Notes under the pieces: model-generated
What the model was told of the DNA's origin: nothing
Seen by the model: the letters and a program-made list of their open reading frames with translations, nothing else
Databases searched by the model: none
Made by a program: the position numbers and the translations under genes
In this document: piece after piece, positions 55,291 through 55,321 of the stretch
Position numbering within the stretch: position 1 is the first letter of the stretch
Layout of the letters: each line of letters begins with the position of its first letter
NCBI GenBank assembly: GCA_015660915.1
Contig: JACTTZ010000001.1
Coordinates: 36,865 to 100,864, forward strand
Length of the DNA stretch: 64,000 bases
Source: Methanomicrobia archaeon
GTDB lineage: Archaea > Halobacteriota > Bog-38 > Methanoflorentales > Methanoflorentaceae
Reading direction: 5' to 3'

Positions 55291-55321
55291 TATATAAATG
55301 AATAATAGGAACTTTGTTTCC
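55291..55321 (+). promoter_or_regulatory. TATA box (TATATAAA) followed by GGAA-N6-TTCC NrpR-type operator (GGAACTTTGTTTCC, 55308-55321) upstream of the glutamate synthase genes
   Basis: The palindrome sits about 10 nt after the TATA box, i.e. at the expected TSS, about 170 nt upstream of gltB domain 1. Confidence 0.45.

What the first reader, a model, noticed from the sequence alone, without database searches (positions are those of the whole stretch)
55291..55321. NrpR-type GGAA-N6-TTCC operator on the glutamate synthase promoter
GGAACTTTGTTTCC lies directly downstream of a TATATAAA box in the 480-bp region upstream of the GOGAT operon. This is the repressor position described for the 2-oxoglutarate-sensing NrpR at nitrogen-assimilation promoters in methanogens. 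It implies nitrogen-responsive repression of GOGAT in this organism.
Basis: partly seen in the sequence, partly recalled or inferred. Interest (0 to 1): 0.5.

Follow-up and report, generated by a model that had tools for sequence, protein, structure and literature searches.

The report
NrpR operator on glutamate synthase promoter
A short palindrome just after the TATA box of the glutamate synthase operon is very probably a binding site for the known archaeal nitrogen repressor NrpR, which adds a gene and an uncultured peat archaeon to a known regulatory system.

Summary
GGAACTTTGTTTCC lies at 55308-55321, 9 nt after TATATAAA (55291-55298), upstream of a four-gene archaeal glutamate synthase (GOGAT) operon with an FrhB-like subunit. 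One such palindrome in 64 kb is what chance gives (1 found, 1.09 expected), so the support comes from comparison. The closest related species has an nrpR gene directly upstream of its orthologous GOGAT operon, with two exact GGAA-N6-TTCC sites between them. It has a third site on its glnA promoter. The window's own organism has nrpR next to glnA at another locus, and glnA carries the same palindrome after its TATA box. I assign that locus to the window's genome because its NCBI protein accessions fall in the same run as the window's, and both loci occur in one metagenome sample. In 149 kb from four lineages, 8 of 11 exact palindromes fall in the 2% of sequence lying upstream of GOGAT, glnA or amt (P = 4e-12). 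This is a new member of a known kind: GOGAT is not listed as an NrpR target in Methanococcus maripaludis. Binding, the 2-oxoglutarate response and the transcription start are inferred, not shown. Interest is modest.

The parts
55291..55298 (+). TATA-box-like element TATATAAA of the GOGAT operon promoter
   Evidence: Read directly. It is one of only 3 exact copies in 64 kb. TATA-like 8-mers sit in the same position, 8-17 nt before the palindrome, in the GOGAT and glnA promoters of relatives. The transcription start is not mapped.
55308..55321 (.). Predicted NrpR operator GGAACTTTGTTTCC (GGAA-N6-TTCC inverted repeat)
   Evidence: Exact match to the published consensus GGAAN6TTCC (PMC2723118). 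It is the only exact copy in the window. It is identical in all 12 strain-level copies of this locus. Equivalent sites occur at the orthologous GOGAT promoters of clade A, at glnA in clades A, B and C, and at amt in clade C. Enrichment P = 4e-12.
55322..55489 (+). Predicted 5' leader of about 168 nt between the operator and the start codon
   Evidence: Inferred from the usual archaeal TATA-to-start distance. No Rfam family matches. It folds no better than shuffled sequence, z = +1.23. Only its last ~45 nt, the ribosome-binding region gagaggggtgg, are shared with clade A, whose leader is ~50-75 nt. Leaders of roughly 200 nt or more follow operators at other archaeal amt and GOGAT promoters.
55490..56557 (+). 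GOGAT subunit 1, class-II glutamine amidotransferase domain (gene callers start it at GTG 55478)
   Evidence: Pfam GATase_2. TTG 55490 is followed directly by Cys (M-C-S-I-L-G). The orthologs in L005 and L031 begin at TTG/ATG-Cys, and L005 has no upstream in-frame start.
56550..58052 (+). GOGAT subunit 2, FMN/Fe-S glutamate synthase domain with an N-terminal 2x[4Fe-4S] ferredoxin domain
   Evidence: Pfam Glu_synthase E 2e-137 plus Fer4. NCBI MGA3358961.1.
58061..58801 (+). GOGAT subunit 3, GXGXG domain
   Evidence: Pfam GXGXG E 3e-31.
58816..59850 (+). GOGAT subunit 4, FrhB-like putative F420-binding subunit
   Evidence: Pfam FrhB_FdhB_N and FrhB_FdhB_C plus Fer4. PMC3087415 describes an FrhB-like subunit 4 of the putative F420-dependent glutamate synthase of Methanothermobacter.

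Best explanation
The palindrome at 55308-55321 is an operator for the NrpR repressor encoded elsewhere in this genome, a 325-aa protein with a winged helix and one NRD regulatory domain. It sits 9 nt after the TATA box, so it should cover about -13 to +1 of the promoter. When nitrogen is plentiful and 2-oxoglutarate is low, NrpR bound there would let TBP and TFB reach the TATA box but block RNA polymerase, and the four-gene GOGAT operon stays off. When nitrogen is scarce, 2-oxoglutarate rises, NrpR leaves the DNA, and GOGAT is transcribed together with glnA, which carries the same operator. Shown here: the site, its geometry, the cognate repressor gene, the shared motif at glnA, and conservation of the nrpR/operator/GOGAT association in sister clades. 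Inferred from what is known of NrpR in Methanococcus and Methanosarcina: binding, the block to polymerase and the 2-oxoglutarate response.
For: The site matches the published NrpR consensus GGAAN6TTCC exactly. In the closest species (L005, GOGAT subunits 81-92% identical), nrpR (Pfam NRD1_2 E 1e-76 plus HTH_12) lies directly upstream of the orthologous operon. Two exact operators follow a TATA-like box there, and a third sits on glnA. Clade A metagenome contigs show nrpR-GOGAT-glnA-amt-glnK with operators at GOGAT and glnA. The window's own lineage (clade B) has nrpR-glnA with TTATAT-17 nt-GGAATGCATTTTCC. That locus belongs to the same MAG as the window by accession run, and to the same sample. 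Clade C (L103) has nrpR divergent from GOGAT, exact operators at glnA and amt, and a one-mismatch site right after the TATA run at GOGAT. A Methanoregulaceae locus (L031) has an exact site in the shared amt/GOGAT promoter region. Between the window and clade A promoters, only the half-sites, the TATA box and the ribosome-binding region are kept. In 149 kb, 8 of 11 exact motifs lie in the 2% that is upstream of a nitrogen-assimilation gene, P = 4e-12.
Against: A single copy in 64 kb is at chance level. No binding, expression or transcription-start data exist for this organism. GOGAT is not among the operator-bearing genes listed for M. maripaludis (PMC2723118), and its transcript did not change during diazotrophy in M. 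thermolithotrophicus (PMC9765008), so the link is not general. It is also absent from the Methanoperedens, Archaeoglobales and Methanothrix GOGAT loci. The ~168-nt leader could hold a second, unregulated promoter. The window has one operator where L005 has two. All copies of the window-type locus I could fetch are one species (at least 99.4% identical), so conservation at this exact locus is uninformative.
Confidence: 0.8

Rival explanations
1. The palindrome is a chance match or a non-functional relic, carried along when the GOGAT operon moved away from nrpR, and it no longer regulates anything.
For: One exact match per 64 kb is expected by chance. In this lineage the operon is no longer adjacent to nrpR. 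Only one operator is present where L005 has two, and in L085 the second site has decayed to 2 mismatches.
Against: The match is still exact and still 9 nt after a TATA box, although the flanks and spacer have diverged from clade A. The repressor and a second operator at glnA are retained in the same genome. Enrichment at nitrogen-gene promoters gives P = 4e-12.
Confidence: 0.08
2. The palindrome is bound by a different transcription factor, or it serves the divergent response-regulator gene (54543-55001) rather than GOGAT.
For: The intergenic region is shared with a divergently transcribed gene. A palindrome has no orientation. TATATAAA is nearly symmetric, so the promoter direction is not proven.
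Against: The site is 307 nt from the response-regulator start. In clades A and C the same motif accompanies GOGAT without any response-regulator gene nearby. The motif is the NrpR consensus and co-occurs with nrpR. The response regulator has only a receiver domain and no DNA-binding domain.
Confidence: 0.06
3. NrpR binds here but control is only partial, because a second constitutive promoter in the 168-nt leader supplies basal GOGAT expression.
For: The leader is about 110 nt longer than in clade A and contains A/T-rich stretches such as ttcttaaaacaatttt near 55374-55389. GOGAT is needed for glutamate synthesis if no glutamate dehydrogenase is present.
Against: No strong TATA-like 8-mer is seen in the leader. 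Leaders of roughly 200 nt or more follow operators at other archaeal amt and GOGAT promoters, so a long leader by itself is ordinary.
Confidence: 0.15

Closest known systems
NrpR and its GGAAN6TTCC operators at nif, glnA and glnK-amtB in Methanococcus maripaludis
   Same: Identical operator consensus (PMC2723118). The operator lies at the core promoter after the TATA box. glnA belongs to the same predicted regulon. The repressor has the same wHTH and NRD domains. L005 has two operators on one promoter, and two operators are also named for M. maripaludis nif in the title of Lie et al. 2005, cited.
   Different: The M. maripaludis list of operator-bearing genes (nif, glnK-amtB, glnA, two mod operons, an alanine symporter) does not include GOGAT. 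From my own knowledge, that NrpR has two NRD domains, whereas this one has a single NRD (325 aa). The organism here is an uncultured Halobacteriota lineage, not a member of the Methanococcales.
NrpRI/NrpRII of Methanosarcina mazei and M. acetivorans
   Same: The DNA-binding protein NrpRI is a separate polypeptide. JGI names some homologs of this protein 'global nitrogen regulator NrpRI'. glnA1 and glnK1-amtB1 are repressed and released by 2-oxoglutarate.
   Different: I did not look for a separate NrpRII-type gene (NRD only) in this lineage. No held paper that mentions both NrpR and GOGAT reports GOGAT as a target in Methanosarcina. The nearest named NrpR homologs found, from Methanoperedens, are only 46-47% identical.
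Predicted NrpR sites in Methanobacterium formicicum BRM9 and Methanothermobacter
   Same: These are genome-based predictions of GGAAN6TTCC upstream of glnA, nifH and amt, the same kind of inference as here. In Methanothermobacter, nrpR also lies beside glnA (MTH1569/MTH1570), as in the window's lineage.
   Different: BRM9 lists pdxT as a target. The window's pdxT (53064-53678) has no site. Neither paper lists GOGAT.

Membership tests
NrpR operator | Inverted repeat matching GGAA-N6-TTCC | tested here: met
   GGAACTTTGTTTCC at 55308-55321, exact. Consensus taken from PMC2723118.
NrpR operator | Located in the core promoter of the regulated gene, at or just after the TATA box and over the transcription start | tested here: inconclusive
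   TATATAAA ends 9 nt before the site, and the same geometry of 8-17 nt is seen in 7 related promoters. The transcription start is not mapped and the promoter direction is inferred.
NrpR operator | A cognate nrpR gene in the same genome | tested here: met
   There is none in the window. P0027 (HTH_12 plus NRD1_2) carries accession MGA3359426.1, in the same run as the window's proteins MGA3358959-3359008, and both loci occur in sample 3300038426. This is assignment by inference, not by a closed genome.
NrpR operator | The same motif at other nitrogen-regulated promoters of the organism | tested here: met
   glnA next to nrpR has TTATAT-17 nt-GGAATGCATTTTCC-30 nt-ATG (L092). The amt and nif genes of this lineage were not found or not searched.
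NrpR operator | Specific binding by NrpR, released by 2-oxoglutarate | not testable with these tools
   Needs EMSA or footprinting with the purified protein.
NrpR operator | Nitrogen-dependent expression of the downstream gene | not testable with these tools
   Needs transcript data from cultures or peat samples at different ammonium levels.
NrpR repressor protein (for P0027 and the L005 homolog) | N-terminal winged helix (PF08461) plus at least one NrpR regulatory domain (PF01995) | tested here: met
   L005 homolog: NRD1_2 E 1e-76, HTH_12 E 5e-21. P0027: the same two domains precomputed, and a match to PDB 3NEK (MJ0159) at E 1.2e-20.
Archaeal split glutamate synthase with FrhB-like subunit (putative F420-dependent GOGAT) | Separate genes for the amidotransferase, FMN/Fe-S and GXGXG domains, followed by an FrhB-like gene | tested here: met
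   Pfam on the four ORFs. The architecture is described for Methanothermobacter in PMC3087415. Use of F420 as electron donor is not testable here.

The most novel reading that the evidence does not exclude
In this uncultured Halobacteriota family, the NrpR regulon has been extended to the FrhB-linked GOGAT operon, which model methanogens do not place under NrpR. The operator stayed with the operon when it moved out of the ancestral nrpR-GOGAT-glnA-amt-glnK island. In the relocated copy, the extra ~110 nt of leader would add a second, post-transcriptional layer of nitrogen control, for example as the target of a small RNA.
Probability: 0.1. Interest if true: 0.45.

Novelty: new member of a known kind. 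Interest (0 to 1): 0.3.

Why it matters
It extends a well-studied archaeal nitrogen switch (NrpR, 2-oxoglutarate, GGAA-N6-TTCC) to a gene that the model organisms do not place under it. It also extends the switch to an abundant, uncultured peat-soil lineage of Halobacteriota. It predicts that this organism switches both steps of the GS/GOGAT pathway together, which peat metatranscriptomes could test. The island nrpR-GOGAT-glnA-amt-glnK in the sister clades shows a regulator, its operators and its targets kept together, then partly dispersed with the operator intact. None of this changes the understanding of NrpR.

Tried and rejected
- The Rfam scan of 54950-55550 at permissive threshold gave only a meaningless miRNA hit at E 0.3.
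- Folding the leader gave z = +1.23, so there is no structured RNA.
- The one-mismatch scan of the window gave 31 matches against 27.8 expected. There is nothing upstream of pdxT, although M. formicicum has a site there.
- Pfam annotation of about 60 window ORFs found no nrpR in the window.
The amt test is therefore open.
- Four further look-ups of window-type GOGAT contigs gave only the same species, with 5 variable columns in 494 and none in the TATA box or the operator. Footprinting at this exact locus was therefore uninformative.
- The primary NrpR papers are not held (PMC2996049, PMC19788, PMC3104677), so operator positions in M. maripaludis rest on secondary citations and my own knowledge.
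- A hairpin or terminator reading was rejected, because the stem would be only 4 bp.

Full report
**Observation**

- Window 55291-55321 reads TATATAAA (55291-55298), tgaataata, then GGAACTTTGTTTCC (55308-55321), a perfect GGAA-N6-TTCC inverted repeat.
- It lies in the gap between a divergent receiver-only response-regulator gene (54543-55001, minus strand) and a four-gene operon.
- The operon products are a class-II glutamine amidotransferase, a glutamate-synthase FMN/Fe-S domain with a ferredoxin domain, a GXGXG domain and an FrhB-like protein. This is the split archaeal glutamate synthase with an FrhB-like fourth subunit, as described for the putative F420-dependent enzyme of Methanothermobacter (PMC3087415).
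- The window is archaeal: it carries archaeal RNase P RNA, TFB and other archaeal genes.
- The first gene most likely starts at TTG 55490 and not at the GTG 55478 that gene callers use. TTG is followed directly by the catalytic Cys (M-C-S-I-L-G), and the ortholog in L005 has no earlier in-frame start.

**Is it more than chance?**

On its own, no. The exact pattern occurs once in 64 kb against 1.09 expected. With one mismatch it occurs 31 times against 27.8 expected. The case rests on position and comparison.

**Relatives**

- A genome-collection scan with the 500-aa subunit found one close species, L005 ('Euryarchaeota archaeon MFD00032.bin.1.50'), at 92% identity. Everything else was at 64% or below.
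- In L005, the gene directly upstream of the orthologous operon is an NrpR homolog (HTH_12 plus NRD1_2, E 1e-76).
- The 183-bp gap between that gene and GOGAT holds a TATA-like box followed by two exact GGAA-N6-TTCC sites, 27 bp apart.
- glnA, a few kb downstream on the other strand, has TTTATAAA-17 nt-GGAATGAAAGTTCC before its ATG.
- These three are the only exact copies in the 21.5-kb locus.

**Three related clades**

Searching with the L005 NrpR and fetching the encoding contigs showed three clades.

| Clade | NrpR identity to L005 | Gene order | Operators |
|---|---|---|---|
| A | 86-96% | nrpR-GOGAT-glnA-amt-glnK | Exact at GOGAT and glnA |
| B | 75% (P0027) | nrpR-glnA, no GOGAT there | TTATAT-17 nt-GGAATGCATTTTCC at glnA |
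| C | 57% (P0053, on a 2.58-Mb contig) | glnK-amt, glnA, GOGAT, then divergent nrpR | Exact at amt and glnA; one-mismatch GGACACTTATTTCC right after a TATA run at GOGAT |

A Methanoregulaceae locus (L031) has an exact site in the promoter region shared by divergent amt and GOGAT genes.

**The window belongs to clade B**

- Its GOGAT subunits are 81-92% identical to those of L005. Clade B housekeeping genes diverge from L005 by the same amount, 84-92%.
- NCBI accessions run sequentially along the window: FrhB-like MGA3358959, GltB ..961, response regulator ..963, TFB ..967, EF-2 ..983, FEN-1 MGA3359008.
- The clade B island continues the same run: LeuRS MGA3359421, DUF711 ..425, NrpR ..426, GlnA ..427. 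All are named '[Halobacteriota archaeon]'.
- Sample 3300038426 holds both loci.
- So this genome very probably encodes NrpR, and glnA carries the same palindrome.

**Geometry**

- At the GOGAT promoters of the window and clade A, the palindrome starts 8-9 nt after the TATA-like 8-mer. At the L031 site, read toward amt, the gap is 10 nt.
- At the four glnA promoters it starts 15-17 nt after it.
- Archaeal transcription usually starts about 22-27 nt after the TATA box (my own knowledge). Both spacings therefore place the operator over the expected start.
- A repressor bound there would leave the TATA box free but exclude RNA polymerase.
- Between the window and clade A promoters, only the half-sites, the TATA box and the ribosome-binding region are conserved. 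The spacer, the flanks and the leader length differ. That is the pattern expected of a selected binding site.

**Enrichment**

In 149 kb from the window, L005, L092, L103 and L031, 8 of 11 exact motifs lie in the 2% of sequence that is intergenic and upstream of GOGAT, glnA or amt. The binomial P is 4e-12.

**Mechanism**

- The published model is that NrpR binds GGAAN6TTCC, represses nitrogen-assimilation genes, and is released by 2-oxoglutarate, which rises under nitrogen limitation.
- P0027 has the winged helix and one NRD domain, and it matches the solved MJ0159 regulatory domain 3NEK at E 1e-20.
- I therefore infer 2-oxoglutarate-relieved repression of GOGAT, co-ordinated with glnA.
- Binding, the effector response and the transcription start are not shown.

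**Limits and differences**

- GOGAT is not among the genes with this motif in M. maripaludis.
- Its transcript was unchanged during diazotrophy in M. thermolithotrophicus.
- The Methanoperedens, Archaeoglobales and Methanothrix GOGAT loci lack the site. No held paper mentioning both NrpR and GOGAT reports such control.
- The link therefore appears specific to this lineage and to at least one Methanoregulaceae genome.
- By EF-2, the organism is an uncultured Halobacteriota lineage whose nearest named relatives are only 72-73% identical (Syntropharchaeia, Methanocellales). Whether it makes methane was not examined.
- The window's leader of about 168 nt has no Rfam match and no unusual structure. 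Leaders of roughly 200 nt or more follow operators at other archaeal amt and GOGAT promoters.

**Verdict**

This is a new member of a known kind: a new target gene and a new lineage for NrpR. Interest is modest.

Noticed in passing
window 55478-55492: Gene callers start the amidotransferase subunit at GTG 55478 (359 aa). TTG 55490 followed directly by Cys fits an N-terminal nucleophile enzyme better, and it matches the orthologs in L005 and L031, which begin Met-Cys.
   Followed up: partly
L005 7774-18752; L085 10001-19364; L103 1208-10978; L092 10001-12465: The sister clades keep a compact nitrogen island, nrpR-GOGAT-glnA-amt-glnK. In the window's clade only nrpR-glnA remains at that site, and the GOGAT operon sits elsewhere, beside a response regulator and pdxT, still with its operator. 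No amt-glnK of the window's clade was found.
   Followed up: partly
L005 18792-18812 (minus-strand amt promoter); L085 17699-17719; L105: The clade A amt promoters carry, right after the TATA box, a longer palindrome GGAAGTAGG-N3-CCTACTTC. Its first 14 nt are one mismatch from GGAA-N6-TTCC. It could be a variant or overlapping NrpR site, or the site of another factor.
   Followed up: no
L005 11550-12035; L085 13770-14036: L005 has an extra 161-aa 2x[4Fe-4S] ferredoxin ORF between the FMN and GXGXG subunit genes. In L085 the same place holds only 42- and 44-aa ORF fragments, and the window has no gap there (58052 to 58061).
   Followed up: no
window 576-6673: A possible integrated-element remnant: a tyrosine integrase (3565-4236, minus strand), a large terminase subunit (4790-6673), a DUF4429/SHOCT protein and a nucleotidyltransferase.
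   Followed up: no
window 32122-32230, 45474-45570, 51779-51863: Three tRNA genes of 85-109 nt by Rfam. ARAGORN misses one and reports a 4-nt anticodon for another, which suggests archaeal tRNA introns.
   Followed up: no
window 28748-28761: A one-mismatch site, GGAATGGAAAATCC, lies in the gap between an AsnC/Lrp-type regulator gene (28207-28680, minus strand) and an unannotated ORF (28833-29306). It is within chance expectation.
   Followed up: no
window 62320-62609: Archaeal RNase P RNA on the minus strand (216 bits). It overlaps mechanical ORFs listed at 62422-62856, which are therefore unlikely to be genes.
   Followed up: no
L092 9760-9850: The gap upstream of nrpR in the window's clade contains what looks by eye like a tRNA gene on the minus strand. 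I did not run a tRNA finder on it.
   Followed up: no
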